A stretch of DNA of 64,000 bases from Planctomycetota bacterium (GCA_024275565.1 JAJRYY010000127.1:124-64123), one strand, 5' to 3'; shown: positions 9,845 to 46,708, counted from the stretch's first letter. The notes: generated by a model from the sequence alone, not told the origin. Translations and numbers: made by a program.

Positions 9845-9961
9845 AAACAGATTACGTCCACTGGTGCAATTGCCATCGCATTTGCGTGTTCTGCTGTCGT
9901 CGAGCCTGTGATGGCATTCGATGCGGATGGATCTGAGCAGTGGTTTCGTTTTGGAGGAAGT

Positions 9962-11014
9962 ATGACACATATTGGCATTGTCATCCCGGTGTGTAATGAA
10001 GAGGCTTGTCTTCCGGAGTTGCGTTTGCGTCTGGGATCCGTTCTGGAGCAGCTTGGTGGGCGGTATGATGTTTATTTTGTGGATGATGCGAGTACCGATC
10101 GTACGCGTGGTCTGATTGAGGAATACTCGGCTGAGGATGAGCGTTGGCATGGCATATTTCTTGCGCGTAATTTTGGGCATCAGGCTGCTGTGACAGCCGG
10201 TCTGGAGGTTGCGTGTGGTGATGCGATTGTGGTGATGGATGGTGATTTGCAGGACGAGCCAGAATCGATTCCAGAGCTGATGCGTATGTGGGACGAAGGT
10301 TACGATACTGTGTATGCGATACGATACAATCGCAAAGAGGGTTTTGTGCGGCGATTATCCTATTGGTTGTTCTATCGCATTCTCCATAGGCTTAGTGGTG
10401 GGAGTATTCCCGACGACGCTGGTGATTTTTGCGTGATGGGTCGTCGTGTTGTGGATTGTCTGAACCAGCTTCCTGAGCGGAATCGATTCGTTCGCGGTCT
10501 TCGGGCCTGGGTTGGATTCAGGCAGACTGGTGTACCCATTGCGCGTGGGGCGCGGGCGTATGGTGAGCCGAAGTATACCTTTGCCAAGTTGATGCGGCTT
10601 GCGATGGACGGAATCCTCGATTTTTCATGGGCACCGCTTCGGATTGCAACAGGTGTTGGATTTCTGTCTGTCCTCACGAGTGTTATGTATCTTCTGGTTG
10701 TGCTTGGGATGCGGTTGTTCGGGCATATTGATGTTGCGGGTTGGACGACGGTTGTCTTTCTGGTCATTTGCTTTGGTGGGATGAACCTGATGGGGCTTGG
10801 TATTATCGGGGAATATATTGGGCGAACCTATGCTGAGGTGAAGCATCGTCCGACCTACATCATTGCCTCCGCCACACCTGGCGTTGGTGGGAGTATGCAA
10901 GGTACAGGCGTGGCTGGCTGGAGTACGGATAAGATGTTTCACGCGATAGCCGATGGTGCGGTTCCGTCGCATCAACAGGCCATGGAGGAACGGGCCATCG
11001 TGCCTGACAGCTAA
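9962..11014 (+). CDS. GT2 polyprenol-phosphate glycosyltransferase (ArnC/GtrB/DPM1-like)
   Basis: IVIPVCNEE, FVDDASTDRT and the DGDLQDEP (DxD) motif, plus two C-terminal TM helices. GGAGG lies 4 nt upstream of ATG 9962; the ORF is open from 9908. Confidence 0.85.
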   Translation: MTHIGIVIPVCNEEACLPELRLRLGSVLEQLGGRYDVYFVDDASTDRTRGLIEEYSAEDERWHGIFLARNFGHQAAVTAGLEVACGDAIVVMDGDLQDEPESIPELMRMWDEGYDTVYAIRYNRKEGFVRRLSYWLFYRILHRLSGGSIPDDAGDFCVMGRRVVDCLNQLPERNRFVRGLRAWVGFRQTGVPIARGARAYGEPKYTFAKLMRLAMDGILDFSWAPLRIATGVGFLSVLTSVMYLLVVLGMRLFGHIDVAGWTTVVFLVICFGGMNLMGLGIIGEYIGRTYAEVKHRPTYIIASATPGVGGSMQGTGVAGWSTDKMFHAIADGAVPSHQQAMEERAIVPDS

Positions 11015-11017
11015 ACC

Positions 11018-11752
11018 GTGCAGATTTCCTATCAAATTCAAACGTTTGCCCTTGAGCGTGAACATTGGTGGTATCGTGCGCGTCACGCCATCATACTGTC
11101 TGAGTTTGAGCGTGTGTTCGGTGGTCGAAGGGATTTGCGCATTCTTGAGGTTGGTTGCGGGGCTGGGACACTTCTGTCGGCTTTGCGTTCGTTTGGTGAT
11201 GCGGTTGGCGTGGATTCCTGCCCGGATGCTGTTCGCGAGGCCAGGCAACGTGCTTGTTGTCCTGTTTATCTTGGACGATTTCCGGACACTTTTCCTGCAA
11301 AACTTGGCAGCTTCGATGCCATCTGTCTGTTCGATGTTATTGAGCATCTTGACGACGATGTGGCGGCGCTCCGATGTGTTCGTTCTCTGTTGAAGCCAGG
11401 TGGTAAGGTTGTCATCACTGTTCCCGCGCTGCCCTGGTTGTTTGGCGTGCATGATGAAATCAACGAGCACCGTCGGCGTTATTCTGAGACGTTACTCAGA
11501 GGCTGTCTGGCGGAGTCTGGTTTTTCCAGCGTGCATTCGTCGTACTTCAATACCCTGCTGAGTCCGTTGCTTATTCCAGCGATCGCGTGGCGTAACGTTC
11601 GCCATGTGGGGCATCACTTTGAGTTAAAATCGAGACTGTCGCCTGTTCTTGAGTGCATATTCAAGGCTGAGCGGCATCTGATGCGGCGAGGACGTCTCCC
11701 GTTTGGTCTTTCTTTGTTTGCCGTTGGTGGTATTGGTACTGCAGGAGTATAA
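11018..11752 (+). CDS. Class I SAM-dependent methyltransferase
   Basis: ILEVGCGAGTLL motif I and LFDVIEHLDDD. GTG start 4 nt after the GT2 stop. Confidence 0.85.
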   Translation: MQISYQIQTFALEREHWWYRARHAIILSEFERVFGGRRDLRILEVGCGAGTLLSALRSFGDAVGVDSCPDAVREARQRACCPVYLGRFPDTFPAKLGSFDAICLFDVIEHLDDDVAALRCVRSLLKPGGKVVITVPALPWLFGVHDEINEHRRRYSETLLRGCLAESGFSSVHSSYFNTLLSPLLIPAIAWRNVRHVGHHFELKSRLSPVLECIFKAERHLMRRGRLPFGLSLFAVGGIGTAGV

Positions 11753-11757
11753 GGGCC

Positions 11758-13752
11758 GTGGTTGTGGGCGAAATTTTCTCATCCGGGCAACATACGATCA
11801 GTCTGGTTGTGGTGATGGGTGTGTGGGTCTACGGGTTGTTCTGGGGGCGACGATTGGCCTGGCGGCTTGGAGTTTTCGAAACCGCAGACGGGTGGGTGAT
11901 TGGGTATACGCTCGCGACGGGGTGCCTGCTTGCGGCGTTTCAGATGATTGGTTTCGCCTGGCTGATCACTGGCGATGCCTGGGTGCGACCGCACTACCTT
12001 GCGAGCGTGTATGTGCTTACGCTGACTGTTGTGCTGCTGGTGCTTGGTACCGGTATCAGTCCGAAGCGACATGTCGTCGCTCATGCGGACGGTCGTACGC
12101 GTGTTCTGTGGTTGTGGTTTCCCATGCTGGTGGTGTTCGGGGCGTACTGTGTGTTTCTCGCAGATGCGGTGTTTCGCCCGCCGACCGGCTGGGATGGTTT
12201 GCACTACCACCTTCCGATGACGGTTCGTTGGCTTCAGACAAGAAACGCTGGTCTGAACCATGGCGAGATTACGCAAAATTTCCCCGGTAATGGTATGGTC
12301 TTCGCATTCGTGCTCCTCGGTGCCGGGTTGGAGCGCGTTGTTAGTATTGCGATGGTCCCACAGGCGTTTCTGACGGCTGTCGTTGTGTATGCAATTGCGG
12401 GACGCCTGGGCATGCGCCAAGTGGGTCGCACCATCGCTGCCTGTATGGCGTTGAGTCTGCCGATGGTGATGTTTCAGGCCTTCTCGACCTATGTTGACCT
12501 TTTTGCGACCAATGCCTGGTTGTGTGCCCTGCTGGCGATCATGTGGTCGTCGGAAATCGAGCGTGCGGTATCGCGGCGTCGGCTGATGTTCATCGGTGGT
12601 TTGGCTTGCGGGATCGCGCTTGGCAGCAAGCTGACCTTCATTCCAGCGACGTTCATGCTGCTGGTCATTGTTGCGATACTGCCTTTGATGTTTCGTCGAC
12701 CGGAGATGTGTTCTCGTTCAGGACCTGGTGCGACGGTTCAATCTCTTGCCATATTCGTCACAGCCATCGCACTATGCAGTTCATTCTGGTACGTCCGAAA
12801 CGCAGTTCTCACGGGCAACCCGGTTTATCCGATGGCGGTGAATGTCGGAAATGTGGCATTGTTCGATGGCGTGGACGCGAGCGTTTATTTCCCCGAACGC
12901 CCTATCCTGACGCAGATTCGACGATGGTGGGCATATCCTTGGCATGAGCATCGCTCCGTTGGATACCATTACGGTGTGGGGGATGGTCTGGGGGCGACAT
13001 TTGCGACATTTGTACCACTCGGCGTACTCGCATGTGTCACCCTGCCCGCGTTCTGGAATGCTCGGCGAGGTTCCCGCCGATGGCGACTTGTGGTTCTTGC
13101 GCTCGCTGGTACGGGGCCACTTCTGTTTGCGACCCTTTGTCATCAGACGTTTCGATTCATCCTCCCAATGATTCTTCTATCCACAATACTCGCAGCCTGG
13201 TTCGTCGAGCGCGTTGCATACCGTTACCCACGTTGGCTGGGTGTTGCGTTGACAACGTCATTGAGTGTTACCGGAATCGTCGCGACTCTCATGCCAGCCA
13301 AAAACATGCTGGGCCGGTTCAAGGATTCGGTACAGGATCGGTCAACCTTCTATGAAATTCCGTCCATGGTGGACACGCTCCCGACAGGATCGATTATCCT
13401 GAATCTGGACGCGCATACGAAGAACTATGCGCTGTCCGGAATTTTAAGGACCAACCAGGTCGTTGGACCGTCCGCGTGGGAGCAGAAACTGGCGTCTCAA
13501 TCTGATCCTTCTCGAGAGTCCAGACACCTGGACGCTGTGGCAGACTTTGCACCGGACTACATCTTTGTTTCCGGCCTGGAAGATCCTGCATGGTTGACGA
13601 GGAGTGGGTTTGAGAAGGTCTATGACAGCACAGGCGACACTGGACCAGTCTTCGGTCAACCGCGCAGGTTGTTCAGGGTGAGGGAGCTTGCATTGACCCG
13701 CTCACCTTCAGACCGGTCAACCCTTACCTCAGAACAACAAGATCAACAGTGA
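11758..13752 (+). CDS. Polytopic membrane protein, ArnT/PMT (GT-C, GT39-like) putative glycosyltransferase
   Basis: About 12 TM helices plus a C-terminal soluble domain. It sits immediately downstream of the ArnC-like GT2 and a methyltransferase, the classical polyprenyl-P-sugar donor/acceptor pairing. Family assignment is by architecture. Confidence 0.6.
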   Translation: MVVGEIFSSGQHTISLVVVMGVWVYGLFWGRRLAWRLGVFETADGWVIGYTLATGCLLAAFQMIGFAWLITGDAWVRPHYLASVYVLTLTVVLLVLGTGISPKRHVVAHADGRTRVLWLWFPMLVVFGAYCVFLADAVFRPPTGWDGLHYHLPMTVRWLQTRNAGLNHGEITQNFPGNGMVFAFVLLGAGLERVVSIAMVPQAFLTAVVVYAIAGRLGMRQVGRTIAACMALSLPMVMFQAFSTYVDLFATNAWLCALLAIMWSSEIERAVSRRRLMFIGGLACGIALGSKLTFIPATFMLLVIVAILPLMFRRPEMCSRSGPGATVQSLAIFVTAIALCSSFWYVRNAVLTGNPVYPMAVNVGNVALFDGVDASVYFPERPILTQIRRWWAYPWHEHRSVGYHYGVGDGLGATFATFVPLGVLACVTLPAFWNARRGSRRWRLVVLALAGTGPLLFATLCHQTFRFILPMILLSTILAAWFVERVAYRYPRWLGVALTTSLSVTGIVATLMPAKNMLGRFKDSVQDRSTFYEIPSMVDTLPTGSIILNLDAHTKNYALSGILRTNQVVGPSAWEQKLASQSDPSRESRHLDAVADFAPDYIFVSGLEDPAWLTRSGFEKVYDSTGDTGPVFGQPRRLFRVRELALTRSPSDRSTLTSEQQDQQ

Positions 13753-13768: not shown

Positions 13769-13829
13769 GAAAGCACACGATGGAAGCACACGATGGAAGC
13801 ACGCGATGGAAGCACGCGATGGAAGCGAT
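13769..13829. repeat. 13-bp tandem repeat, about 4.7 copies
   Basis: Units gaaagcacacgat / ggaagcacacgat / ggaagcacgcgat / ggaagcacgcgat / ggaagcgat between convergent genes. Confidence 0.95.
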
Positions 13830-14506
13830 CAGCAGGCTGCAGACAGGCGGCGTAGCTGATCACGCTGGGTGGTAATGCTCATGCGTCGAACACCCTCTAG
13901 CAGGTCGTTGGGTATGGACTTATCTGCGATGCAGCTCACGCCATATCGGATTTTGCCCCGGTGCAGTTCGCGGACGCTTTGGATGCACACGGTTCCTGTA
14001 TACTCCACTCCATCGTGATTGAGGATTACCTCGACGATGCTTGCAACTTCATGTAGTTTGTTGGATGAGACGGCAAAACCAGTATTGCTGATGTCGAGAA
14101 TCGCGCAATCGCGCTCCTCACCAAAAATTGCGGTTAGCTCGGACATGACGGTCGAAACGCGATAGCACTCCCGGTTTTCCGCCGAAACCACGTCGCCCAG
14201 CGTTTCAAAAGTAAAGGTTCCTGGTGTTTCGGGCGACTCCTCCTGAAGAGCAGACTCCTCCTGAGGAGCATCTGTCACGCGTGCTGCCTGCTTCACAAAA
14301 TCGCGCTTCTGGTTGTAGAAAACGAGAATCTCCTGCTCTGCTTCAACCTCGATATCTGTTTCTTCGAATTCGGCGGTGTATAGACCGTCGCTTACACCGA
14401 CGACTTTGGCAGGGTGGAGGATGCGGCGATCAGACTCGCCCGAAATTTGAAGGAAGAATTCTTTGTCAACACCAAGCATAGCCTCAGCTCCTCTAACATG
14501 GGTCAT
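13829..14506 (-). CDS. PilZ-domain (c-di-GMP binding) protein with N-terminal PilZN-like barrel
   Basis: RxxxR (RECYR) lies 21 aa upstream of DxSxxG (DISNTG). GGAGGA Shine-Dalgarno before the ATG. Confidence 0.75.
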   Translation of the reverse strand: MTHVRGAEAMLGVDKEFFLQISGESDRRILHPAKVVGVSDGLYTAEFEETDIEVEAEQEILVFYNQKRDFVKQAARVTDAPQEESALQEESPETPGTFTFETLGDVVSAENRECYRVSTVMSELTAIFGEERDCAILDISNTGFAVSSNKLHEVASIVEVILNHDGVEYTGTVCIQSVRELHRGKIRYGVSCIADKSIPNDLLEGVRRMSITTQRDQLRRLSAAC

Positions 14507-14829
14507 CTGCGGTCCTCCCCAGGACCACCACTGTGCTTCATCGGCACTCGAAACATGGGAATGAAGCAGAGAGTGGCCCAGGGTGCCGGGGCGACAGTGT
14601 CCACGCAGGACACATCAATTACACGTTAGGTCAGGCAGAATGTGAATGGATATCGCGCAGTCAAGTCCGATAAAACCAGACTCAAACCTTGTCACTCATA
14701 ATCAGACCTTGCCCAGCAACCGGACAAATTCGCTCGCAAATTGTCGAATGGATTCGGATTGCGTCATATAAATGAGCAGGCTGAGGATGTACAGTGCTAA
14801 CCATATTCGGTTGTGTGTGCGCGGAAGTG

Positions 14830-15672
14830 TCACGATCTCACACCATCGTCAGTTTCGACGTTCTCGCCAATGCCTGTCTCTTCGCAGGTTTCAACTGGGA
14901 CGCGTTCGATGTTGTTCGCAGGTGTACCCACCATGACGATGGACTGCCCAAAGGGTGGCGGTATGATGCGTTCCATGGCGTCGATGAACGGTACGAGTCG
15001 GTTGAACACGCGTGCCTTCTCCCGAGACAGTTCCCTGCGTCCGAGGCATCGACTTTCCCACCACCACCCGAAAAATCCGATCGCGTTCAGGTAAAACGAT
15101 CGTTGGACCGCAATACCCGACTGTTCAAAGGCGCGTAACAGTGACCGCTTGTTGTATCGCCGATAATGCCCCAGCGTTTCATCAAGGCCGCCATAAATCC
15201 CCTGATGTGCCGGTACAAGAATCACGATTTTTCCACCGGTTCTGCACAACTTGCGCATCGTCGAAAGAGCATCGATATCATCTTCAATATGCTCCAGAAC
15301 GTTCAGGCACATCACCGTGTCGAAGTGACTGGCGGACAGCTCAGTACATGGCGCATCAGAGAGCAACCGCCCCACGATGCGCACATTGGCATGCGCATCA
15401 AACCGTTCCTGAGCAGCACAACACGACGCGGACGAGGGTTCCACGCCGACGACCTCCGGATGATTCAACAGGAACTGCGTGATGTTTCCGATCCCGCAAC
15501 CGATCTCGCAGACCCGCCCGCAGATGAATGGGCGAATCTTATTGTAAAGCCAATGGTTGTAGTTATACAGGTCGCTCAGTACGTCCAGGCTCTCTCGGAC
15601 CTCTGCGTCTGCACGCACAGGAACGTCTTCAAATACCCCACTGGCTGGTCCTATTTCGATGGCTGTGCTCAT
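14830..15672 (-). CDS. Class I SAM-dependent methyltransferase
   Basis: VCEIGCGIGNITQFL motif I and CLNVLEHIEDD. Confidence 0.85.
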   Translation of the reverse strand: MSTAIEIGPASGVFEDVPVRADAEVRESLDVLSDLYNYNHWLYNKIRPFICGRVCEIGCGIGNITQFLLNHPEVVGVEPSSASCCAAQERFDAHANVRIVGRLLSDAPCTELSASHFDTVMCLNVLEHIEDDIDALSTMRKLCRTGGKIVILVPAHQGIYGGLDETLGHYRRYNKRSLLRAFEQSGIAVQRSFYLNAIGFFGWWWESRCLGRRELSREKARVFNRLVPFIDAMERIIPPPFGQSIVMVGTPANNIERVPVETCEETGIGENVETDDGVRS

Positions 15673-15741
15673 GCACGAATATCGACAAATCGCCAGGTCC
15701 GATGAAGTTTCGCCACGATATATTCCATTGCACCGAGATCA

Positions 15742-16947
15742 CTACGCGGGGGCAGGACTGGATATCTGACGCACCTGCATTCTCCTCTCCGAGCTTCGAT
15801 GCAATGCATTCCGCATCACACTCGAGGTTTCACTCGCTACGGTCGACCATGTGCGAATCGGGAATGCCCGCGCAATGGACAGCCGATGCGGACGCGCATT
15901 CAGCATTCTATTGATTCCGGCCAACAACGCCCGATCGCTTCCCATGGGAATCAGCAAGCCGCTCGTCGGCGACACAATTTCACCATTGCCCCCAACATCC
16001 GTCGCCAGAACAGGCACGCCGCACGCAATCGACTCTCCCAGCGCATTGCACCACCCTTCGTTGCTTGTGGGCAGGACGAATAAATCCGAAGCCTGTAACC
16101 ACGTCGCGATGGTGGTGGGTTCCAAATGCCCTGTGAACGTGACACGATCCTCCAGGCCGAGTTCTTTCACCATCGCGCGAAGTCGTCGCTCGAATCGCCC
16201 CTCAGCTGCCTCGCCCCCTGCCATCACATAGCGCAGCTTCCCATGTTCCTGCAGCAGTTTGGGAAGCACCCTCAGGACGCGATGAAAACCCTTCCGCCTG
16301 CACAAGTGACCGACGGTGATGAGGATCGTCTCATCGCGTGGAAGATTCAGGGCTTGGCGGGCAGCACTCTGATCGCCATACCGAAACACTTCGCTGTCAA
16401 TACCATTCGGAATCACGTGGACCCGGTCCGCCGGCACGCCAAGTCGAACAGCGTCTTCTTTCAGAGCAGATGACACTGCAATCACACCACTCGCCCCCTG
16501 AAGTGAACTCACGATGGATCGACGCTTCCAGAAATTCTGACAGTATCGGTTCAAAACGCCGCGAAGCGTCACTGTATAGGGTATGCCCAGCGCCCCAGCC
16601 ACCCGCGCAGCAGCCACACCGTCAGGCCAGCTGAAGTGTGCGTCAATGATGTCAACCTGGTCACGCTGCTTGAAGTCCCGGACCAGTGGCATGACCGAGC
16701 GAGCATATAAATATGGGTTAAGTGGTTTGCCAAACTTCGGTAGATAGGGCATCACCACCCGCCAGACCGGTGGCGGACCCTCAAGCTTCTTCACCCCGCG
16801 ACGCCCCAACCAGAACGGTGTTGGAATCGGATGTACCATGCGCACATGATTCGACTGGGCGAGCGATTGCAACCGCGATCGAACGAACAATCCGGCGTAC
16901 GGAGCTTCCTCAGAAGGATAACATAAACTCATGCTCACAATGTTCAC
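15742..16947 (-). CDS. Glycosyltransferase family 4 (GT-B)
   Basis: C-terminal EGWCNALGESIACGVPVLATDVGGNGEIV (E-x7-E region). GTG start overlaps the asnB stop (GTGA). Confidence 0.9.
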   Translation of the reverse strand: MNIVSMSLCYPSEEAPYAGLFVRSRLQSLAQSNHVRMVHPIPTPFWLGRRGVKKLEGPPPVWRVVMPYLPKFGKPLNPYLYARSVMPLVRDFKQRDQVDIIDAHFSWPDGVAAARVAGALGIPYTVTLRGVLNRYCQNFWKRRSIVSSLQGASGVIAVSSALKEDAVRLGVPADRVHVIPNGIDSEVFRYGDQSAARQALNLPRDETILITVGHLCRRKGFHRVLRVLPKLLQEHGKLRYVMAGGEAAEGRFERRLRAMVKELGLEDRVTFTGHLEPTTIATWLQASDLFVLPTSNEGWCNALGESIACGVPVLATDVGGNGEIVSPTSGLLIPMGSDRALLAGINRMLNARPHRLSIARAFPIRTWSTVASETSSVMRNALHRSSERRMQVRQISSPAPA

Positions 16948-18959
16948 GATACCGTCTCCACAGCTTCGACAGCTACCACAGCTTCCTCAGTTTCCAGCTT
17001 TAATTTCCCGGTGAAACCAGATTGGCTTGATCCCGACGCCAGGCCGCCCGTTGCAGGGATGTGTCGTCGCAACCACAGCTCCAGCATCAGCATCGCCCAG
17101 AGGCGCGCACCCAGTCGACTCCCTTTCGATGCTACAAACGTCCGCCAGCATCGTCCCACCGCATCCGCTCCAAGCCACTCATAAATCCGTGCGTCGGGAG
17201 AAAGCAGAATATCCTGCACCATCTCCCGCAGCGGTCCACGAAACCATTCGTCCATGGGTGCTTCAAAGCCCTTTTTACGCCCAGATGACACTTGCTCGCC
17301 AAGCTGACTACGAATCGCTTCCCGCAGGATATACTTGCCCCGCCCACCGCGAATCTTCAAGGATGCAGGCAGGACCGCCATGGACTGTACCCAGTGTGTG
17401 TCAAGCAGTGGCACGCGTACCTCAAGACCATGCGCCATCGATGCCCGGTCCACTTTGCACAAGACCCCATCCGCCAGCCACGTCTTCATGTCCACATATT
17501 GACCCCGTCCCAGCGGATTCTGTGCATCACATGCCGCGAAATGCTGACGCAACACGTTGTAAGGATCATGATCCCCGAGACGCTCGACTGTCTCAGGGCG
17601 AAGCAGTGAAACCGTGTCCCAGGGGTGATACCACGCCATCCCCAGATAGTGTGCGAAATCATCATCAGCGGACAGGCCATCCAGTGCAGCAGACAACCGC
17701 TTCAGCCCACTACTCCACGGTTGCGACGCTCCACCCAGTTCTCTCAATCTCCGCAATCCATCAATGCGACCGAATCGCTGCAACACGTTCGTGACACTTC
17801 TCTGCCGATGTCGACGGATGTACCGGGTGTATCCCCCGAATAATTCGTCACCCCCATCCCCAGACAACACCGTTTTAACCATCCCCGATGCAAGACCACT
17901 CACCGCGTGTGTCGCGATGGACGACGGATCTGCAAACGGCTCATCAAATACCTCCGAAATCGTCTCGACCACATGCGTCGCTTCCGGGCGAACCATGCAC
18001 GCGTGATGGTGAACGCCAAGACGGTCAGCCAAAGCGCCCGCTTCAATCCGTTCGTCAAATTCCGGATCATCAAATCCAGCAGTAAACGAATCAAAACCCG
18101 CCCCATGGACCTGCACCATATTCCAGACGATTGCGCCTGAATCCAGTCCGCCGCTTAGAAATGCACCCACAGGAACGTCCGATACAAGGTGTGTCCGCAC
18201 CGTTTCGGAAAGACCATCGCGAATCCGCCTGCACCACGCCTCCTCGGAACGCTGCGATTCTTCAGCAAACGATACATCCCAGTAGGTCGTTCGTGACGTA
18301 CCCTCCGCCGATATCACAACACGCTCCCCCGGCGACAATTGACAGACATCCCGCAAGATTGTCCGTGGCGATGGCACATAGTGATACGTCAGATATTCAT
18401 GCAGGGCAGCCTCATCCACCCGTCGTGGAATCTCACGATGCTCGATCACAGCATCAAGCCGCGATGCGAAAACCACCCCTTCAGTTGCACAGGATCCGAG
18501 ACCGATTGACCCAAAATACAACGGCTTAACGCCAATCGCATCACGCACCAGAAGGAGACGCCGCCGCCGATTGTCCCATAAGGCGAACGCGAACATCCCA
18601 CGCAGCTTTTCCACGAAACAGTCGCCATACGCCTCATATAGATGCACGAGCACTTCCGCATCACTTCCAGTCTGAAATCGATGCCCGCCAGCCTCCAGCT
18701 CCTCACGCAGCACGCGATGGTTGTAGATTTCGCAGTTGGCTGTCACCCATATCGATCCATCTTCATTGCCAATAGGCTGATGCCCACCCGCCGGATCGAT
18801 GATTGCAAGTCGCCGATGCCCAAGTACTGCGATACCGTCGTCATGCACACCCTCACCGTCGGGACCGCGATGCGACACCCGCACCAAACCACGCGAAGCA
18901 GCCAGCCGATCCTCGTCCTGCAAACCGCCGAAGCGTACTACGCCAGCGATGCCGCACAT
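16944..18959 (-). CDS. asnB: Asparagine synthase (glutamine-hydrolysing) family amidotransferase, glycan-locus paralogue
   Basis: N-terminal MCGIAG nucleophile motif; the start is placed so Cys is residue 2. SGGLDS PP-loop motif. Confidence 0.9.
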   Translation of the reverse strand: MCGIAGVVRFGGLQDEDRLAASRGLVRVSHRGPDGEGVHDDGIAVLGHRRLAIIDPAGGHQPIGNEDGSIWVTANCEIYNHRVLREELEAGGHRFQTGSDAEVLVHLYEAYGDCFVEKLRGMFAFALWDNRRRRLLLVRDAIGVKPLYFGSIGLGSCATEGVVFASRLDAVIEHREIPRRVDEAALHEYLTYHYVPSPRTILRDVCQLSPGERVVISAEGTSRTTYWDVSFAEESQRSEEAWCRRIRDGLSETVRTHLVSDVPVGAFLSGGLDSGAIVWNMVQVHGAGFDSFTAGFDDPEFDERIEAGALADRLGVHHHACMVRPEATHVVETISEVFDEPFADPSSIATHAVSGLASGMVKTVLSGDGGDELFGGYTRYIRRHRQRSVTNVLQRFGRIDGLRRLRELGGASQPWSSGLKRLSAALDGLSADDDFAHYLGMAWYHPWDTVSLLRPETVERLGDHDPYNVLRQHFAACDAQNPLGRGQYVDMKTWLADGVLCKVDRASMAHGLEVRVPLLDTHWVQSMAVLPASLKIRGGRGKYILREAIRSQLGEQVSSGRKKGFEAPMDEWFRGPLREMVQDILLSPDARIYEWLGADAVGRCWRTFVASKGSRLGARLWAMLMLELWLRRHIPATGGLASGSSQSGFTGKLKLETEEAVVAVEAVETVS

Positions 18960-20143
18960 GAAACACACCCCTCCTTTTGTTCAGCGATGATCGTCTCATA
19001 AAACCTCGTATACCGCTCCACCATCAACCGAACATCATGCTCCGACCCAGCCCGATTCGCTGCCAACCGCCTGAAGGAATTCCGAAAATCCGCATCAGAC
19101 GTCATCTTTTCGATCCTGTCTGTAATCGCCGCAACATCACCCTCAGGTACCACAAGCCCACACGGACCGTCACAAACCAGTGATGCATTATCACCCACGT
19201 CAGTGACAACGCACGGCACCCCACACGCCATCGCTTCAAGCAACGCCCGACTCATCTGTTCGTAGCGACTGCACAGCAGAAAACCATCCGCAGCATGCAA
19301 CACTGGCACAACGTCGTCACGCCTGCCCAGGAAGTCCACACGCACAGAGTCCGATAGTGTCGCAGCCTCGCACTCAAGCGACTCTCGCAGAGGCCCATCA
19401 CCAGCCAGCAGCAATCGGACCTTGCCCTCCCTCGGGCTGACCTGACGCATCGCCGCCAGTGCAAGCCGGTGATTCTTCACGTCAACCAGCGATCCGACCA
19501 TCACCCAGGCTGTCTCGTTCGGATCCAGACCGAGCGATCGCCGTGCAATCTCCCGGTCCTCCGATGTTGGCGGATGAAACCGCGACATGTCCACGCCATT
19601 GGGAAGAATCGAAATGTGCTCTTCCGGTATGTCGAATGCGTCAACCAGTTCCAGAAAACCAGCCTCCGACACGGTTGTAAATCGACGATTGCGCAATCCC
19701 AGCCATCGAGCACGCCGACCCATCTTCGCAAGCAACGCCCCCTCGCGCTCCAGCCCGTGAAACCCCAGAACACACCGCACGCCCGGAACAAATGCAGACG
19801 CAAGCAACGCATCCGTCCATGTGTTCAAATTCCGCGCATGCACCACGTCAGGTCTCAACCTCCGCAGCAACGAGACCAGTCGCATCCACGCAAAACGACT
19901 GGATCCGACGACATCCAGGCACGACAGAGAGACCTCGCCCGGAACACGCGACGCCAGTCGACCGGCAGACCGCATCGTGCAAATCGCCTGCCGCACGCGT
20001 GATGAATCACCACGGTGCACAAGCTCCAGAACGCCATGCTCCATACCGCCACATTCAAGCGAATGCACCACGTGCAATACCACCGGACGGCGTATACGTT
20101 CCTTCAAGTTCAGGTCGGCAATCATCGAAACTTTCCACCACAA
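18938..20143 (-). CDS. Glycosyltransferase family 4 (GT-B)
   Basis: HSLECGGME N-terminal motif and EQMSRALLEAMACGVPCVVTDVGDN. The start is uncertain because the 5' end overlaps the upstream ORF by 71-89 nt. Confidence 0.85.
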   Translation of the reverse strand: MWWKVSMIADLNLKERIRRPVVLHVVHSLECGGMEHGVLELVHRGDSSRVRQAICTMRSAGRLASRVPGEVSLSCLDVVGSSRFAWMRLVSLLRRLRPDVVHARNLNTWTDALLASAFVPGVRCVLGFHGLEREGALLAKMGRRARWLGLRNRRFTTVSEAGFLELVDAFDIPEEHISILPNGVDMSRFHPPTSEDREIARRSLGLDPNETAWVMVGSLVDVKNHRLALAAMRQVSPREGKVRLLLAGDGPLRESLECEAATLSDSVRVDFLGRRDDVVPVLHAADGFLLCSRYEQMSRALLEAMACGVPCVVTDVGDNASLVCDGPCGLVVPEGDVAAITDRIEKMTSDADFRNSFRRLAANRAGSEHDVRLMVERYTRFYETIIAEQKEGCVSCAASLA

Positions 20144-21431
20144 ACGAGTTCGCCATCGCCATCTCGCCCAGGATCACGCGTTTCAGGCAGCCAGGGAACG
20201 CCAGAATCCACCAGAACGCCTCCGTATACAAACGCTCCGTAAACATTTGTGTCGTAATCGAGACCGTCAACGACAAGATCAATCCATACGACATATATTG
20301 AACCCATTTCGGGTCGGAAGTCTTCATCGCCCACCGCTTGCACTGCCACGATTGAACCATGGCTCCGATGACGATAATCAAAAAGAGTACAAGCCCCTGA
20401 ATACCAAGCTCAGCCCAGCATAGAATGAACGAGTTGTGAGCAGCCCGAGATCCAAGGGTCGGGTTCACTCTGGCGATCGTAGGCTCGAAATTCCCAATCC
20501 CGACCCCAAGTGGGTGTTCACGGATAATTTCGAACGCAGACTTCCATATCTCTATCCGAATTGTGGCCGACTGATCCGTCGACACAATATTCGGACTGTT
20601 CAACGTCATCATCCGGTCCCAATAATGACTGTCTGTCAACGTGTACGCACAACTGAGAGCAATCACCAGCGTCGCAACGGTTTTCATCCGATGCCTCTTG
20701 GGAGCGAGCAGAATCGCAACAATCCCGCCCACAAACAATCCAATGAACGCAGATCGAGTGCGACACAGAACAATCGTATTCACCGTCAATGCTCCAGCAG
20801 TACCAACCACCAGACGCGCCATCCAGGATTTACACGTCATGAACACCGCAGCAAGAAGCGGAAGCATCGCAGCCATATGTGCCGCCAGACCCGATGAATG
20901 ACGGAAATCAGGACCACCCACATGCTCCAGGCGACCACTCGTCTCAAACGATCCACGCGGTGCAGTCCACGCGTCATATCCGATATACAGACTCCCAAGA
21001 ACAAGCGCCCACATGATGATCGTGTAGTTCTTCCGAGTCGCAGTCAGACGCGTCAGGCAAAAAACAAAAATCATCATCTTGACAAATTTCTCTGTCAGAT
21101 AAATCCCAAGCGGTGATGGGGTCAGACCCGTCAACTCACTCAGCAGCACGACAATCGTCAACCCAATCATGCTGACGTCAGTCAGGTTCAACATCGGACG
21201 AAGTGAAGGCAACCGGGGCAAATTCACCAGCATCCCAAGCATCATGCACGAAGCCGCCGTCATGGAATAACGAATACCAAGCTGCTCAATGGAACGATGC
21301 CACCATGCATGCTCCGGGAACACCAGATAAATCATGATGTAGTGCGCAGCACCCATAATCGGCACCATCAGCGATAACGTCGACATACCAAAAAACGACA
21401 TCAGGAACGCGACACTACGAAGCGGCAGCAT
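20055..21431 (-). CDS. O-antigen ligase/polymerase-like (Wzy_C-type) membrane protein
   Basis: About 10-12 TM helices with a large periplasmic loop. Typical family architecture inside a GT4 cluster. Confidence 0.65.
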   Translation of the reverse strand: MLPLRSVAFLMSFFGMSTLSLMVPIMGAAHYIMIYLVFPEHAWWHRSIEQLGIRYSMTAASCMMLGMLVNLPRLPSLRPMLNLTDVSMIGLTIVVLLSELTGLTPSPLGIYLTEKFVKMMIFVFCLTRLTATRKNYTIIMWALVLGSLYIGYDAWTAPRGSFETSGRLEHVGGPDFRHSSGLAAHMAAMLPLLAAVFMTCKSWMARLVVGTAGALTVNTIVLCRTRSAFIGLFVGGIVAILLAPKRHRMKTVATLVIALSCAYTLTDSHYWDRMMTLNSPNIVSTDQSATIRIEIWKSAFEIIREHPLGVGIGNFEPTIARVNPTLGSRAAHNSFILCWAELGIQGLVLFLIIVIGAMVQSWQCKRWAMKTSDPKWVQYMSYGLILSLTVSITTQMFTERLYTEAFWWILAFPGCLKRVILGEMAMANSFVVESFDDCRPELEGTYTPSGGIARGAFA

Positions 21432-22722
21432 GATCCATCACCTCGCAAGGGTCTATTCGGATAGGTTCATTCGATACACCATTGTGGTATGCACGCCCGG
21501 ATGTGTCCCGCACAAGTCCATCACGCAACCGACGCGATAGTGACGGCATCCAGTCGGCGCTCCGATGTTTCAACGCCGTCTCACGAGCAGCCTCAGACAT
21601 CGACAACCGGGTCGCCCGATCCCGAAGACGCTCAATCGCAACGCGGATGCTCGCAGGGTCGTGTTCCGTGACGCTGATCCCACAACCATGCTCTCGGATA
21701 AACCGATCCACGAAGGAACCACGCGGAACGATCGCCAGAACAGGACGCCCAACCGCCAGATACTCCATCAACTTCGAGGGAAAACAACCTTGAACCTCCA
21801 CCGGGCAGGGAGAGTTCCGACCCAAGAGCAGAACCAGCACGTCAGCATCATGAAGCGCCGAAACAGATGCATCATGAGATAACCAGCGAGCACCAACATC
21901 ACGCATCAAACCATCACACCCATCCGGATTGCTGTGATACGAAACGTCTACGCAGTCCATATCCCGGGTCGCAGACACAAACGCACGAACCGCATCAATG
22001 TGCGGCTCATATACAAGACCGCTGTATAGCAACTTCAACGTGTCACCACATGCGGGCGGCGGCGTAGGATGAACATCTTCCGGAACACAATGCGGCAGCG
22101 CCCAGACTTGCGACAATCCACGACGCCGGTAGTGATCCGCAAATTCCTCCGTTGGCACCACGATCATCCACGCATCTTCCAGCACGCGGCCATCAACCCA
22201 CCGCCAGAACGCACGCCGAAACGGATTCCGAAACGCAATCCCCTCAGCCAGCAAATCATGCATATACAACACCAGTGGCAGACGAAGTCGCTTTGACAGT
22301 CGCCACCCAGCCAGTAACCCAAACCGATGCGGATACACCACCATCAACCGATCAGGCTGCCAAGACCGACAAACATCCTCAGCAGCCAGCGACATCGCAC
22401 CCATCGCACGCCAGACTGCGGGCATCATACGCCACGAAATCGGAGCAGCGTCCGGAAGACACCACGGCACCCGAACAGAGGGCACGACACATTCAAGCGC
22501 GTCAGACCCATCCCGACCGATCGAACTTCCACCGCTTCCCGAACTTTCACAGCTTCCTGCATCCAATGGTGAGCGTGTCACCACACGGAACCGACCAGGC
22601 CGGGCAGACCGAAACAGTGTCCCCAGAACGCGCGCAGACGCCCGCTGTGCAGGCGGCCAATGCCAAGACAGAATCAGCGTTTTGATCTCGTCAGTCTTCT
22701 GCATCCATACCTTTCGGAGCAA
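21415..22722 (-). CDS. Putative GT-B glycosyltransferase
   Basis: Two-Rossmann-like layout (LILSWHWPP..., ...FPSKLMEYLAVGRPVLAIV). Alternative start at 22704. Confidence 0.55.
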   Translation of the reverse strand: MLRKVWMQKTDEIKTLILSWHWPPAQRASARVLGTLFRSARPGRFRVVTRSPLDAGSCESSGSGGSSIGRDGSDALECVVPSVRVPWCLPDAAPISWRMMPAVWRAMGAMSLAAEDVCRSWQPDRLMVVYPHRFGLLAGWRLSKRLRLPLVLYMHDLLAEGIAFRNPFRRAFWRWVDGRVLEDAWMIVVPTEEFADHYRRRGLSQVWALPHCVPEDVHPTPPPACGDTLKLLYSGLVYEPHIDAVRAFVSATRDMDCVDVSYHSNPDGCDGLMRDVGARWLSHDASVSALHDADVLVLLLGRNSPCPVEVQGCFPSKLMEYLAVGRPVLAIVPRGSFVDRFIREHGCGISVTEHDPASIRVAIERLRDRATRLSMSEAARETALKHRSADWMPSLSRRLRDGLVRDTSGRAYHNGVSNEPIRIDPCEVMDHAAAS

Positions 22723-23029: not shown

Positions 23030-23252
23030 CTCCCCGGTCATTCAACCGGGTAGGTTGGACCATGACCAGGCATCTGCAGAGGTGGGGTGTGCGAAAGTGT
23101 CACCCCATGCGCCCCAGTTGCAACTCACACTGTATTTTTCCCTTGACGCCGCGTATCTTTGGGGAATATGCTCCATATCGGGCAAAAAAGGATGTGCCTG
23201 CGCGGGTATACTTCGCCCCAGCGGGAAAATGAGGAAAACAGGAGGTTTTCTG

Positions 23253-24453
23253 ATGAAGGCAAGTCGTCTGATGAAGAGGATGCATCATGTCACCGTCGTC
23301 GTGCTGGTCCACACCCTTGGTCTCGGGCCCATCGCTTTTGCGGGGGGGGGGGGTGGAACCGAACGTCGATACGTTTGAACCGTTCACGATACTCGAGATT
23401 ATGAGCGGCCTGCGTCACGGGGTCGTAGGGCGGTTCCCGGACATACCACCGTCCGAGGCGATCGGGTCCGGTACTTGGGATTGGGAGGAGGACGCGCTTT
23501 TCACAATCGACTATGGCGACGGTGAAATGCGTATTTTCCACGCCACGAATTTGTCTTTTCACTCCTCGGAAGCAAGTGTCGCCTCACTTCTCGACTCGGC
23601 AAACCTCATCATGGATGGTGACACGATCGTGGGGCTGAACATAGAGGCGTGGTATGAGAGCATCTCTACGGATTCGTTGTATGTGCGTTATGAATCAGTT
23701 CCCATGGTTTCATACGATGAGGCACCGAGGCCCGATCCATCCTTCACAAACACAAAAGCTGTTTGGTTCCAAGCACCAAGCGGCATTTGGGTGGCAGGCA
23801 AAAAAATGCGTATGACGATGCACTTCGACCTTGATTATGGTCAAGATGTGGACGTGATATTCACAAGGCTTGTTCCAAACTACTACCTCCAGACCGAGCG
23901 GGACGCCGAAGTCGTTGCACGCATGGTATTGGGAGATTTTGAATATTGTGCGGAGGGACAGGGCAATCAGAAATTTCTCACCGGTTGCACACCCTTTACA
24001 GGTTCCCCGCAAGATGAAGTCCCATCGTCGTTAAACAATGATCCCCCGCGCGACCTCAGTGATTTCGGTACCGACAGCGGCAGCAATGTAGATTGCGGAA
24101 ACGTATTGAGTTTCAAGCGTATTTCGGCAGATCGCGCATTGGATGCTGCACTGGGAAGTTGTAACTTAGTCTGGGGGATGGGAGGCTGGGGCCTAGCTGC
24201 AGGTGTTGCGGCAGTGTGTTGTGGCGGAGCATTCGCAGGGTGCGGTGGACCACCTCAAGGTATTGTGTGTTGCGCCATTGGAGCCTTTGTTTGTGGAGTT
24301 GGTGGACGTGTTTTTGCAGATTTTGAACACGAGATATGTGACCAGATAGCTTGGGACATTGCCATGTCTTCCTATGCCGGACACTTTGCGGATTACCTTA
24401 GCTATTGTGTGGATAACAATGAAACATGTACCGTCATTCCGATTGATTGGTGA
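23253..24453 (+). pseudogene. Secreted protein with C-terminal Gly/Cys-rich hydrophobic zipper; reading frame broken at a G12 tract (phase-variable gene, pseudogene or assembly error)
   Basis: GGAGG lies 7 nt before ATG 23253, which encodes a Sec-type signal peptide MKASRLMKRMHHVTVVVLVHTLGLGPIAFA. That frame stops at 23378. The 388-aa body (23287..24453) is in the +1 frame. G11 or G14 instead of G12 would fuse the two frames. Confidence 0.7.
23342..23353. repeat. Homopolymeric G12 tract
   Basis: Counted directly: c + 12 g + t. It lies exactly at the signal-peptide/mature-protein junction. Confidence 0.95.
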
Positions 24454-24971
24454 TGGATCCCAAGTTTCGTAACTTCCCACCGGGTGTTGCTCGCCGGCTT
24501 ATCTTGGTCCCGTTTGTGCCATTTGTTATCGCGTGCCTTGTACCAGTCGTTGCTGACGCGAAAAGGTTTGGTTTATCAGACATGATTCCTTTGATGAGTA
24601 GTCTAAGTTGGTTCGTACGAGTTTGGCCTTCGGCGGTTTACCTCCTCGTGGTGTTTAGTCCATTATTGGCTGCGCCCCTGTATTTTTGGCTCTGGCAGAA
24701 GAAGATTTTGAAGCGAGCACTTGCGGAGGATCTTTGCTGGGGGTGTCTGTATTGCCTGAAAGGATGCCCAGACGAGGATAGCCTCTGCCCGGAGTGTGGC
24801 CTGCCGTGCTCGGGCAGTCGGAAGCGATGGGCGCTTTTTCGAGTGAATTTTCTGTTCCCATACAACGGTTACGCCTTACAGCAACGAGCCACCAGAAAAT
24901 CGGAGAGGAAGGCCGAGAAAGCTGCTCAAAAAGTGGAAGACGCCGCTCTGAAAGTGGAAAGTAGTCCGTAA
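24453..24971 (+). CDS. Small membrane protein with C-terminal Cys4 zinc-ribbon-like motif
   Basis: ATG overlaps the upstream TGA (TGATG at 24451..24455). Two or three TM helices, then CWGCLYCLKGCPDEDSLCPECG and a basic tail. Confidence 0.7.
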   Translation: MDPKFRNFPPGVARRLILVPFVPFVIACLVPVVADAKRFGLSDMIPLMSSLSWFVRVWPSAVYLLVVFSPLLAAPLYFWLWQKKILKRALAEDLCWGCLYCLKGCPDEDSLCPECGLPCSGSRKRWALFRVNFLFPYNGYALQQRATRKSERKAEKAAQKVEDAALKVESSP

Positions 24972-42810: not shown

Positions 42811-43787
42811 CAGTGAAGGTTGAGTAAGGGCCAGGAAAATTCAAACAGGTGATCGAGTCCGACACGCCATCCGATCCCGAGAGATGCAACGATGATGGGT
42901 GCGACGACGGCGTAGTACAGGGTGACGCTGGTTCGGATGCGCATCGGCAAGGTGTGTGCGAGACGAATATGCCAGAACCACCACGCGGTCGTCGCGATGG
43001 CAGCCACGATGGCAGCCAGACCATAAATGGGTGCGACGGGCGGCGTGAGGGGCAAGCCAATCGTGTGCATCACATGCCGGATCGGAATAAGCAGGACAAT
43101 GGCTGCCGCAGCAAGGATGGGCGTGGCGAATGCGGTGACGTAGTGGAGCGCACCCTGAAGTCGACGTTCACCCGTTGCAGCGTCGACGATCGTCAGACGC
43201 GTCCCAGCCTGCAGGGTGGACATCATGATGTACGCGAGGATCAGGGCTGACAGGAATGAGATTGGGGTAGCGATCGCGGTCTGTGCAGGGTTCCACCAGA
43301 TCGCGAGGGATCCGTAGGTAACGGGCGAGGCATCGGCGTCGGTTGCGATGGGTCGCCATGCCCGGCCGGTGGGTTCAGATTGCAGGAGCATCGCATTATC
43401 GGGCGTGCGGATGACGCGGTGGAAACCGACATGCGCAATCTGGAGGAACGTCATCGCCAGGGCGAGCGTGAGCAATTGCCAGCGCGCGAATTGTCGCGAC
43501 GGGACGGAAGGGCGGATAAGCGAAAGGTGCATGATGCGGTCCGCCCCTGCCCAGTAGATCCACCGGCGCATCTGGCGTCTGGCAAGCTTGCCGGACGCGT
43601 TCGCTTCGGCGTAGGGTGTATTGTCGTCACTGGTAACACTGGGAGGCGACAACACCGCACCGCAACCCAGGCAGTTAGGCTCATAGACAAGACGGCTGAT
43701 CCGTCCGCAGGAGGGGCATGTTTTGACACTTTTCGACGGGGCGGGCGAGGGGGGGCGTCCGGAGAAGTCAAAGTTGGACGCGGTCAT
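42807..43787 (-). CDS. Polytopic membrane protein with N-terminal zinc-ribbon (CPSCG...CLGCG)
   Basis: 4-nt overlaps with both neighbours. About 6 TM helices. No family recognised. Confidence 0.65.
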   Translation of the reverse strand: MTASNFDFSGRPPSPAPSKSVKTCPSCGRISRLVYEPNCLGCGAVLSPPSVTSDDNTPYAEANASGKLARRQMRRWIYWAGADRIMHLSLIRPSVPSRQFARWQLLTLALAMTFLQIAHVGFHRVIRTPDNAMLLQSEPTGRAWRPIATDADASPVTYGSLAIWWNPAQTAIATPISFLSALILAYIMMSTLQAGTRLTIVDAATGERRLQGALHYVTAFATPILAAAAIVLLIPIRHVMHTIGLPLTPPVAPIYGLAAIVAAIATTAWWFWHIRLAHTLPMRIRTSVTLYYAVVAPIIVASLGIGWRVGLDHLFEFSWPLLNLHW

Positions 43788-46393: not shown

Positions 46394-46528
46394 GTATTGT
46401 AGTAGAGAGTGGCAGGACAGCTTATGGGGGGGAGTAGCATGACAGGGGGCAGAAAACGGTCTGCGACGGCAGCCATGACCGGGCGAACGATCATCTCGAG
46501 CGGCAGCATTCCCTGCTTCCGCGACGTT

Positions 46529-46588: not shown

Positions 46589-46635
46589 CCATCACGCAAA
46601 ATCTGCCGATATGGCGGCGTTGGGTTCGTGATGTT

Positions 46636-46698: not shown

Positions 46699-46708
46699 CG
46701 GATTGAAA

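What the first reader, a model, noticed from the sequence alone, without database searches (positions are those of the whole stretch)
23342..23353. G12 homopolymer exactly at the signal-peptide/mature-protein junction: possible slipped-strand phase switch
ATG 23253 has GGAGG 7 nt upstream and encodes a canonical signal peptide ending AFA-GGGG. With 12 G this frame terminates at 23378, while the 388-aa body continues in the +1 frame from within the tract. One G fewer (G11), or two more (G14), gives a single preprotein of about 400 aa. I saw no other long G or C homopolymer in the window. Homopolymer-length switching of a surface or secreted protein is classical phase variation. I do not recall it being described for this type of high-GC, planctomycete-like genome. 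The trivial alternative is a homopolymer sequencing or assembly error.
Basis: seen in the sequence. Interest (0 to 1): 0.7.

Follow-up and report, generated by a model that had tools for sequence, protein, structure and literature searches.

The report
Poly-G frameshift switch in secreted-protein gene
A run of 12 G's sits exactly between the export signal and the body of an uncharacterised secreted-protein gene in an uncultured planctomycete (Phycisphaerae); relatives carry runs of 10, 11 and 12 G at the same spot, so it looks like a classical slippage on/off switch, here assembled in the "off" state, though without reads a miscounted run cannot be excluded.

Summary
G12 lies at 23342-23353 and is the only homopolymer longer than 7 in 64 kb. 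ATG 23253 with GGAGG encodes a canonical signal peptide that stops at 23378. The body reads on in the +1 frame to 24453. G11 or G14 fuse them into 399 or 400 aa.

New evidence favours a real hypermutable switch over a one-off error or a dead gene:
- The family is tiny: 5 close members and 15 clusters among 1.8 billion representatives.
- Four of the 5 close members carry a G tract at the same junction: G12, G12 and G10 (the last two inferred from off-frame N-termini) and G11 (read in DNA). None is in frame with the signal-peptide start.
- The fifth member has a decayed tract (GGGGGAGAGG) and an in-frame signal peptide. Four more distant members also have in-frame signal peptides.
- The body is under purifying selection (dN/dS about 0.2, dS saturated), and a sigma70-like promoter is conserved.

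The closest known case is Neisseria pilC, with a poly-G in the signal-peptide-coding region. The host is a Phycisphaerae MAG. The protein has no known family or fold. Read-level heterogeneity could not be tested, so a miscounted tract length remains possible. I rate it a new member of a known kind, of moderate interest.

The parts
23143..23172 (+). sigma70-like promoter candidate (TTGACG, 18-nt spacer, TATGCT), preceded by a T-rich stretch
   Evidence: Consensus scan. The same TTGAC(A/G)...GGGAATATGCTCCA block is conserved in L001, although synonymous sites in the gene are saturated (alignment A3). Function is inferred, not shown.
23241..23245 (+). Shine-Dalgarno-like GGAGG, 7 nt before ATG 23253
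   Evidence: Read directly. GGAG also precedes the homologous ATG in L001 and L002.
23253..23341 (+). Signal-peptide coding segment (MKASRLMKRMHHVTVVVLVHTLGLGPIAFA; the last codon GCG takes its third base from the tract). The ATG at 23271 aligns with the start codon of the relatives.
   Evidence: Homologous in-frame signal peptides occur in P0003/L001 and in the distant members P0006, P0010, P0011 and P0013.
23342..23353 (+). G12 homopolymer: the proposed slipped-strand switch, encoding the Gly run at the mature N-terminus
   Evidence: Relatives carry tracts at the same junction: G11 read in L002; G12 and G10 inferred for P0002 and P0005; decayed to GGGGGAGAGG in L001.
23253..23378 (+). OFF-state product: a 41-aa ORF (signal peptide, Gly5, TERRYV, stop)
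23353..24453 (+). Body of the gene (mature protein from VEPNVDTF...; stop TGA 24451-24453). It has an alpha+beta N-domain, a disordered linker, and a C-terminal Gly/Ala/Cys-rich helical hairpin.
   Evidence: ORF. Homologues. dN/dS 0.17-0.27. AF2 model pLDDT 69, pTM 0.66. No hit in Pfam, NCBIfam, PADLOC, or the PDB by sequence or fold.
24453..24971 (+). Downstream partner gene (172 aa; hydrophobic N-half plus CWGCxYCLKGCP...CPECGLP zinc-ribbon-like motif). Its start overlaps the body's stop (TGATG).
   Evidence: The same 1-nt overlap and the same gene are present in L001 (2756-3232) and L002 (from 1242). Translational coupling is inferred.

Best explanation
The G tract is a hypermutable simple-sequence repeat that acts as a translational on/off (phase-variation) switch for a two-gene operon. 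The operon encodes an uncharacterised Sec-exported, Cys-rich protein and a small membrane/zinc-ribbon partner.

Proposed mechanism:
- Transcription starts at a conserved sigma70-like promoter near 23143-23172.
- Ribosomes start at ATG 23253 (or 23271) and translate the signal peptide.
- With G11 or G14 they read on into the 366-aa mature part, and only the number of Gly residues just after the A-F-A cleavage site changes.
- With G12, as assembled, they stop after 41 codons at 23378, so no exported protein is made.
- Translation of the partner, whose ATG overlaps the body's stop codon, probably falls too.
- Slipped-strand mispairing at replication adds or removes G's and moves lineages between ON and OFF.

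Shown: the tract and its frame consequences; presence of a tract with different lengths in relatives; one relative with an interrupted tract and an in-frame signal peptide; an intact, selected body; a conserved promoter block.

Inferred: that tract length actually switches within a population; that the promoter and signal peptide function; the polarity on the partner gene.
For: 1. Anatomy: only G11 and G14 fuse the signal peptide to the body.

2. The family is normally exported. P0003/L001 and the distant members P0006, P0010, P0011 and P0013 carry in-frame N-terminal signal peptides. There are 8-10 conserved Cys.

3. The tract is kept at the same junction in relatives.
- L002 has G11 at 150-160, read in DNA.
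- P0002 starts with the window's own off-frame peptide (MSPSSCWSTPWVSDPSLLRGGGVEPNV). This implies the same 12-nt spacing.
- P0005 joins the third frame (..HRFCGGGVEPNV), which implies G10.
- Window and L002 are only about 47% identical in protein, with saturated synonymous sites (pS 0.70), yet both use GGG-GGG-GGG flanked by G.
- GGG is only 29% of Gly codons in the window. The other six Gly3 runs in the window's genes all mix codons.

4. L001 has GGGGGAGAGG and is in frame, like a tract-interrupted, fixed-ON allele.

5. It is not decaying. No other stop or frameshift occurs in any body. dN/dS is 0.17-0.27. The promoter block is conserved between the window and L001.

6. Control. In 275 kb of other Planctomycetota MAG loci, the two coding G/C runs of 9-10 (one inside an essential aaRS gene) are in frame. 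In this family 0 of 4 tracts are in frame.

7. Precedent. The Neisseria pilC poly-G tract lies in the signal-peptide-coding region (Jonsson 1991, as summarised in PMC13190605).
Against: - No reads, strains or time series were available, so no direct evidence of length heterogeneity within a population exists.
- All sequences are metagenome assemblies, and long G runs are error-prone. The lengths 10, 11 and 12 could partly be miscounts.
- Two of the four tract lengths (P0002, P0005) are inferred from protein N-termini. Their DNA could not be fetched.
- 0 of 4 ON is not significant on its own: (2/3)^4 = 0.2.
- In L002 the candidate signal peptide from the homologous ATG is weak (an Arg in the core; Kyte-Doolittle 1.34), so its ON/OFF assignment is uncertain.
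- Only this one tract is present in 64 kb, so there is no sign of a genome-wide set of contingency loci.
- An intact MutL is encoded 4 kb away, so slippage rates would be those of a repair-proficient cell.
Confidence: 0.58

Rival explanations
1. Homopolymer miscount in assembly or sequencing. The true length is in frame (G11 or G14 here; G11 in P0005; G10 or G13 in L002), and the gene is an ordinary, constitutively translatable secreted-protein gene.
For: All sources are metagenome assemblies or MAGs. Long G runs are a known weak point of sequencing chemistries (general knowledge). Each observed length is only one base from an in-frame length. The rest of the gene is intact and under selection.
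Against: Four independent assemblies would all have to be wrong, in different directions (+1, +1, -1, +1). Other G/C runs of 9-10 in comparable Planctomycetota MAGs are assembled in frame inside genes. No other gene in the window shows an obvious homopolymer frameshift, and the large ORFs give full-length Pfam matches. Even if the count is wrong, a G tract of 10 or more conserved across lineages with saturated synonymous sites would still be intrinsically slippage-prone. This rival therefore changes the assembled state, not the nature of the element.
Confidence: 0.22
2. Plain pseudogene: a once-functional secreted-protein gene inactivated by a frameshift in a fortuitous Gly-codon run, now decaying.
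For: The assembled frame is broken. The family is rare and patchy, with 15 clusters among 1.8 billion representatives. No function is known.
Against: There is no second lesion in 1.1 kb of body in any of the four tract-bearing members. dN/dS is about 0.2. The promoter, RBS and overlapping partner gene are conserved. An uninterrupted tract would not survive neutral decay across lineages with dS above 1.5.
Confidence: 0.08
3. Recoding rather than DNA switching. RNA polymerase slippage on the C12 template, or ribosomal +1/-1 slippage of tRNA-Gly on GGG codons, yields a fixed fraction of in-frame product from any tract length. The gene would then be expressed at a low level rather than switched.
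For: Any shift within a G run allows perfect re-pairing. All three frames are open across the signal-peptide region. Transcriptional slippage at homopolymer runs is an established mechanism (PMC3711429).
Against: Known bacterial transcriptional slippage sites are A/T runs. Close relatives would need shifts in opposite directions (+1 for G12, -1 for G10), which argues against one conserved programmed event. No stimulatory structure or known RNA family lies nearby. L001 needs no recoding.
Confidence: 0.07

Closest known systems
Neisseria gonorrhoeae/meningitidis pilC1/pilC2 (poly-G tract in the signal-peptide-coding region; Jonsson et al. 1991, as cited in PMC13190605)
   Same: A G homopolymer of roughly the same length lies inside or at the end of the signal-peptide-coding segment of an exported protein. 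Changes in length shift the frame so that translation from the signal-peptide start either continues or aborts. In-frame length changes only add or remove Gly residues.
   Different: The phylum differs (Planctomycetota, class Phycisphaerae, uncultured and probably environmental). The protein is unrelated, with no PilC/PilY1 similarity and no Pfam or PDB hit. Switching here is only inferred. A translationally coupled partner gene follows.
Campylobacter jejuni poly-G/C contingency genes (capsule, LOS and flagellar-modification loci; e.g. PMC8437040, PMC5380846, listed)
   Same: G/C tracts of 8-13 nt inside the 5' parts of reading frames. Tract-bearing and tract-interrupted alleles exist among relatives. 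The window's gene sits next to a polysaccharide biosynthesis cluster.
   Different: C. jejuni has dozens of such tracts per genome and lacks mismatch repair (general knowledge). Here one tract is seen in 64 kb and MutL is present. The adjacency to the polysaccharide cluster is not conserved in L001.
Neisseria opa genes (CTCTT repeats in the signal-peptide-coding region) and Mycoplasma vlp/vsp families, which have a conserved 5' end with a variable mature part (general knowledge, not tested here)
   Same: The repeat is placed in the leader-coding part. Several loci share a nearly identical 5' region (RBS, signal peptide, tract) while the mature parts diverge.
   Different: The repeat unit is 1 nt, not 5 nt. 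It is not known whether P0002 and P0005 are paralogues in one genome or alleles in different genomes.

Membership tests
Slipped-strand (SSR) translational phase-variable gene / contingency locus | Simple-sequence repeat long enough to slip (homopolymer of about 8 or more) inside the reading frame or promoter | tested here: met
   G12 at 23342-23353, between the signal peptide and the mature part.
Slipped-strand (SSR) translational phase-variable gene / contingency locus | Changes in repeat number toggle between a full-length and a truncated product | tested here: met
   In silico, G11 and G14 give 399 and 400 aa. G9, G10, G12, G13 and G15 give 40-50 aa.
Slipped-strand (SSR) translational phase-variable gene / contingency locus | Repeat length differs between related strains or loci while the rest of the gene stays intact | tested here: met
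   G12 (window), G11 (L002, DNA read), G12 and G10 (P0002 and P0005, inferred from off-frame N-termini), decayed tract in L001. Bodies are intact with dN/dS about 0.2. Caveat: these are assemblies, and two of the lengths are inferred.
Slipped-strand (SSR) translational phase-variable gene / contingency locus | Reversible, high-frequency length heterogeneity within one population, with matching ON/OFF expression | not testable with these tools
   No reads, cultures or expression data were available. Exact-protein look-ups found no second assembly of the same strain.
Sec-type secreted or surface protein | N-terminal signal peptide with a charged n-region, a hydrophobic core and an AxA cleavage motif | tested here: met
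   MKASRLMKRM-HHVTVVVLVHTLGLGPI-AFA: +4 charge, Kyte-Doolittle 2.40. In-frame signal peptides occur in P0003, P0006, P0010, P0011 and P0013. This is a heuristic only; no dedicated predictor was available and export is not shown.
PilC/PilY1 family | Sequence or fold similarity to PilC/PilY1 | tested here: not met
   No Pfam or NCBIfam hit. No PDB hit by sequence or by fold (best E 0.06, TM below 0.25). The resemblance to pilC is in the switch, not the protein.
Programmed frameshift / transcriptional slippage gene | Frameshift site and direction conserved among homologues | tested here: not met
   The required shift is +1/-2 in the window and P0002, -1/+2 in P0005, and none in L001.

The most novel reading that the evidence does not exclude
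The window gene, P0002 and P0005 may belong to a small family of variable exported proteins in Phycisphaerae that share a homogenised 5' 'expression cassette' (RBS, signal peptide, poly-G switch). That cassette is about 99% identical at the nucleotide level, judged from off-frame translations. It is attached to mature parts that are only about 60% identical, and the C-terminal helical hairpins are only 20-38% identical. Each gene is translationally coupled to a membrane/zinc-ribbon partner. That would be a phase- and antigenic-variation-like (or polymorphic effector/immunity-like) system, and the first contingency-locus family described in Planctomycetota.
Probability: 0.25. Interest if true: 0.62.

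Novelty: new member of a known kind. Interest (0 to 1): 0.42.

Why it matters
Homopolymer-driven phase variation is textbook biology, but it is known almost entirely from host-adapted pathogens. A conserved poly-G switch in an uncultured Phycisphaerae, controlling a rare and wholly uncharacterised family of exported Cys-rich proteins, would extend contingency loci to Planctomycetota. It would also mark this protein and its partner as something the cell needs to display only stochastically, for example a phage or predator target, an adhesin or an effector. In practice it shows that the database model of this gene (388 aa from ATG 23287, no signal peptide) is an artefact of the OFF frame. It also gives a precise amplicon to test in the source samples.

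Tried and rejected
Searches that returned nothing:
- Fetching DNA for P0002 and P0005 by exact-protein look-up failed.
- The family is absent from the GTDB species-representative genomes and from the JGI metagenome contig collection, both by protein patterns and by a degenerate DNA pattern across the tract.
- Look-ups of the window's own 388-aa product and of the partner protein found no second assembly of the same strain. Between-assembly heterogeneity for one strain therefore could not be checked.
- Cluster look-up gave no accessions or names.
- A paper search for the MAG and run identifiers found nothing.

Function:
- Pfam, NCBIfam, PADLOC and a PDB sequence profile gave no hit.
- The first AF2 model, from 5 sequences, was unusable (pLDDT 40).
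- The second, from 16 sequences, was usable (pLDDT 69), but Foldseek against the PDB gave no significant match.
- Rfam found nothing in the 5' region.
- There is no paralogue or second copy of the 5' cassette inside the window.

Considered and rejected:
- A conserved internal restart at ATG 23401. That Met is not conserved in L001 or L002.
- A G-tract effect on promoter spacing. The tract lies about 170 nt downstream of the promoter candidate.
- A functional link to the neighbouring polysaccharide cluster. That neighbourhood is not shared by L001.

Full report
**1. The observation**

The sequence at 23341-23354 reads c-GGGGGGGGGGGG-t, that is G12 at 23342-23353. It is the only homopolymer longer than 7 nt in the 64-kb window. 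Dinucleotide-preserving shuffles expect 0.08 G10 matches, and none of 100 shuffles reaches the observed count.

GGAGG (23241-23245) lies 7 nt before ATG 23253. That frame encodes MKASRLMKRMHHVTVVVLVHTLGLGPIAFA followed by GGGGGTERRYV and a stop at 23376-23378. The 388-aa ORF 23287-24453 is in the +1 frame and passes through the tract.

Rebuilding the tract in silico shows that only G11 (399 aa) and G14 (400 aa) join the two parts. The signal-peptide frame has four positive charges, a hydrophobic core (best 10-mer Kyte-Doolittle mean 2.40) and A-F-A. The N-terminus of the ORF from ATG 23287 in the assembled (G12) frame, MSPSSCWSTPLVSGPSLLRGGG, has none of these features. The one exception is 'high-GC', since the window is 55.8% GC.

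**2. The organism and the neighbourhood**

The window's class II aminoacyl-tRNA synthetase (49616-51184, minus strand) is 76-79% identical to those of Phycisphaerae MAGs, and all the best hits are Planctomycetota. The protein collection records a 64,258-bp contig for the window's product, so the window is essentially one MAG contig.

Upstream, on the opposite strand, lies a polysaccharide-type cluster with PilZ, methyltransferase, GT4, asparagine synthase, GT4, Wzy_C and GT4 genes. Downstream lie a methyltransferase-domain gene and an intact mutL. The gene under study and its partner form a plus-strand island between minus-strand genes. In the relative L001 the same pair sits in a different neighbourhood, so the adjacency to the polysaccharide cluster is probably incidental.

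**3. The gene family**

A word-indexed search of 5.8 billion proteins with the fused G11 product found only five proteins, one of which is the window's own. An exhaustive profile search of 1.84 billion cluster representatives found 15 hits at E up to 0.001. The family is therefore rare.

Distant members with complete N-termini (P0006, P0010, P0011, P0013) and the closer P0003 start with in-frame signal peptides. The family alignment shows 8-10 conserved cysteines in the C-terminal part. Both features fit an exported protein.

There is no Pfam, NCBIfam, PADLOC or PDB sequence match. An AlphaFold2 model built on 16 sequences (pLDDT 69, pTM 0.66) shows three parts:
- an alpha+beta N-domain (about residues 13-193);
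- a disordered linker (199-245);
- a long Gly/Ala/Cys-rich helical hairpin (248-296 and 302-354).

Foldseek against the PDB gives nothing significant (best E 0.06, TM below 0.25). The function is unknown.

**4. The tract in relatives: the key evidence**

- *P0003 / L001 (Logan run ERR2639422).* The homologous ATG (MNRVHKVTAVVLMNTVCFGPLAY-GGEVVPN) is in frame with the body. The DNA at the junction is GGGGGAGAGG, an interrupted tract.
- *P0004 / L002 (JGI 3300082588).* The DNA has G11 at 150-160. The ATG homologous to that of the other members (position 90, MNR...TVCF, preceded by GGAG) reads into the tract and stops at 191. The body is in another frame and was called from an internal ATG. G10 or G13 would fuse them.
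- *P0002 (NCBI, 387 aa).* It begins MSPSSCWSTPWVSDPSLLRGGGVEPNV, which is the window's own off-frame peptide with two changes. It therefore has the same 12-nt spacing and the same OFF frame.
- *P0005 (NCBI, truncated by a contig end).* It begins with the window's third frame (...NEENRRFSDEGKSSDEEDASCHRRRAGPHPWSRTHRFC-GGG-VEPNV, 40 of 41 residues identical). That is possible only with G10.

Four of the five close members thus carry a tract at the same junction, with lengths 12, 12, 10 and 11. None is in frame with the signal-peptide start. The only member with an interrupted tract is in frame.

**5. Is the tract maintained by selection?**

Between the window, L001 and L002, synonymous sites are saturated (pS 0.67-0.73), while dN/dS is 0.17-0.27. 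The body has been under purifying selection, and neutral positions have turned over.

Even so, the window and L002 both encode the Gly run as GGG-GGG-GGG flanked by further G's. In the window's genes GGG makes up 29% of Gly codons, and the six other Gly-Gly-Gly runs all use mixed codons. Retention of an uninterrupted run in both lineages is therefore unlikely by drift. None of the tract-bearing genes has a second lesion.

A sigma70-like promoter candidate (TTGACG, 18-nt spacer, TATGCT, 23143-23172) lies in a block that is conserved between the window and L001. These facts argue against a decaying pseudogene.

**6. Is it an assembly error?**

This cannot be excluded without reads. Two points speak against a pure artefact.

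First, four independent assemblies would all have to be wrong, and in different directions.

Second, there is a control. In 275 kb of other Planctomycetota MAG loci fetched for the taxonomy step, there are three G/C runs of 9-10 nt. The two that lie in coding sequence (C9 in L040; C10 inside the aaRS gene of L066) are in frame.

Even if the true length here were G11, a conserved G tract of 10 or more inside a reading frame is intrinsically prone to slippage (established knowledge from Neisseria and Campylobacter; see the papers listed). The rival therefore changes the assembled state, not the nature of the element.

**7. Mechanism proposed**

Slipped-strand mispairing changes the number of G's. 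In-frame lengths (11 or 14 here) give a pre-protein whose only variable feature is three or four Gly residues immediately after the A-F-A cleavage site. That position should tolerate length changes (inference). Other lengths abort translation after 40-50 codons.

The downstream 172-aa gene has a hydrophobic N-half and a CWGCxYCLKGCP...CPECGLP motif. It starts with an ATG that overlaps the body's TGA (TGATG, 24451-24455). The same 1-nt overlap is present in L001 and L002. The OFF state may therefore also lower its translation through loss of coupling (inference).

Recoding by transcriptional or ribosomal slippage is a minor rival. The direction of shift needed differs between close relatives (+1 for G12, -1 for G10, none for L001). 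Known bacterial transcriptional slippage sites are A/T runs (PMC3711429).

**8. Comparison with known systems**

[quoted passage not shown] 1991, as summarised in PMC13190605). The switch works the same way here, but the protein is unrelated.

Campylobacter poly-G contingency genes are also similar. However, that organism carries many tracts and lacks mismatch repair (general knowledge), whereas here there is one tract in 64 kb and mutL is present.

Literature searches combining Planctomycetes, Planctomycetota or Phycisphaerae with phase variation, homopolymeric tracts or contingency loci returned nothing relevant. This is absence of evidence in the held library, not proof of novelty.

**9. 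An unexpected feature**

The off-frame N-termini of P0002 and P0005 match the window's off-frame translations almost perfectly (20 of 22 and 40 of 41 residues). Because any nucleotide change would show in such translations, this implies roughly 99% nucleotide identity over the RBS, signal-peptide and tract region. Yet the mature parts are only about 60% identical, falling to 20-38% in the C-terminal 120 residues.

The pattern of a conserved 5' cassette, a variable body and a hypervariable C-terminus recalls multigene families of variable surface proteins, or polymorphic effector systems. Whether these are paralogues in one genome or alleles in different MAGs could not be determined, because their DNA was not retrievable. 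No second copy lies within the window.

**10. Verdict**

Switching within a population is untested.

It is a new member of a known kind, a pilC-like translational phase switch, found in a new phylum and a new protein family. Interest is moderate at 0.42. The 5'-cassette family reading would raise it if confirmed.

Noticed in passing
window 23226-23353, versus the N-termini of P0002 and P0005: The RBS, signal-peptide and tract region appears about 99% identical in nucleotides among three loci, judged from off-frame translations (20/22 and 40/41 residues identical). The mature proteins are only about 60% identical, and the C-terminal 120 residues 20-38%. This suggests a homogenised 5' cassette on divergent bodies.
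   Followed up: partly
window 24451-24455; L001 2753-2758; L002 1239-1244: The stop codon of the body gene and the start codon of the downstream 172-aa membrane/zinc-ribbon-like gene overlap by one base (TGATG) in all three loci. This suggests translational coupling. The motif CWGCxYCLKGCPxExSLCPECGLP is almost invariant.
   Followed up: partly
window 23143-23190; L001 about 1495-1545: A conserved non-coding block (TTGAC(G/A), spacer, GGGAATATGCTCCA..TCGGGC.AAAAGG) contains a sigma70-like -35/-10 pair. No Rfam family matches it.
   Followed up: partly
window 4759-4765, 43749-43755, 46426-46432: All three G/C 7-mers in the window lie within the first 50 nt or so of listed ORFs (3803-4804 minus strand, 42807-43787 minus strand, 46409-48301 plus strand). 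This could be chance, over-extended starts, or short slippery tracts at 5' ends.
   Followed up: no
L066 1156-1165; L040 561-569; L079 2820-2828: Other Planctomycetota MAGs carry G/C runs of 9-10. One is a C10 encoding Pro-Pro-Pro, in frame, inside the class II aaRS gene of a Gemmatales MAG. One is a C9 in frame in a neighbouring gene. One is a G9 just upstream of a strong-looking TTGACA/TATACT promoter region.
   Followed up: partly
window 13829-22722 (minus strand): A polysaccharide/O-antigen-like cluster: PilZ-domain protein, methyltransferase, GT4, asparagine synthase (AsnB-type), GT4, Wzy_C-domain protein, GT4. It is divergent from the poly-G gene.
   Followed up: no
window 7658-13752: Large plus-strand ORFs (7658-9844 and 11758-13752) have no Pfam match. 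They lie in a region with unusually strong GC skew (+0.23) and AT skew (-0.3 to -0.4).
   Followed up: no
L001 929-1324 (minus strand): The gene called upstream of the family member in the Logan contig encodes a 131-aa protein made largely of degenerate repeats such as YG(S/R)(S/C)(V/G)..Y. Its nature is unknown.
   Followed up: no
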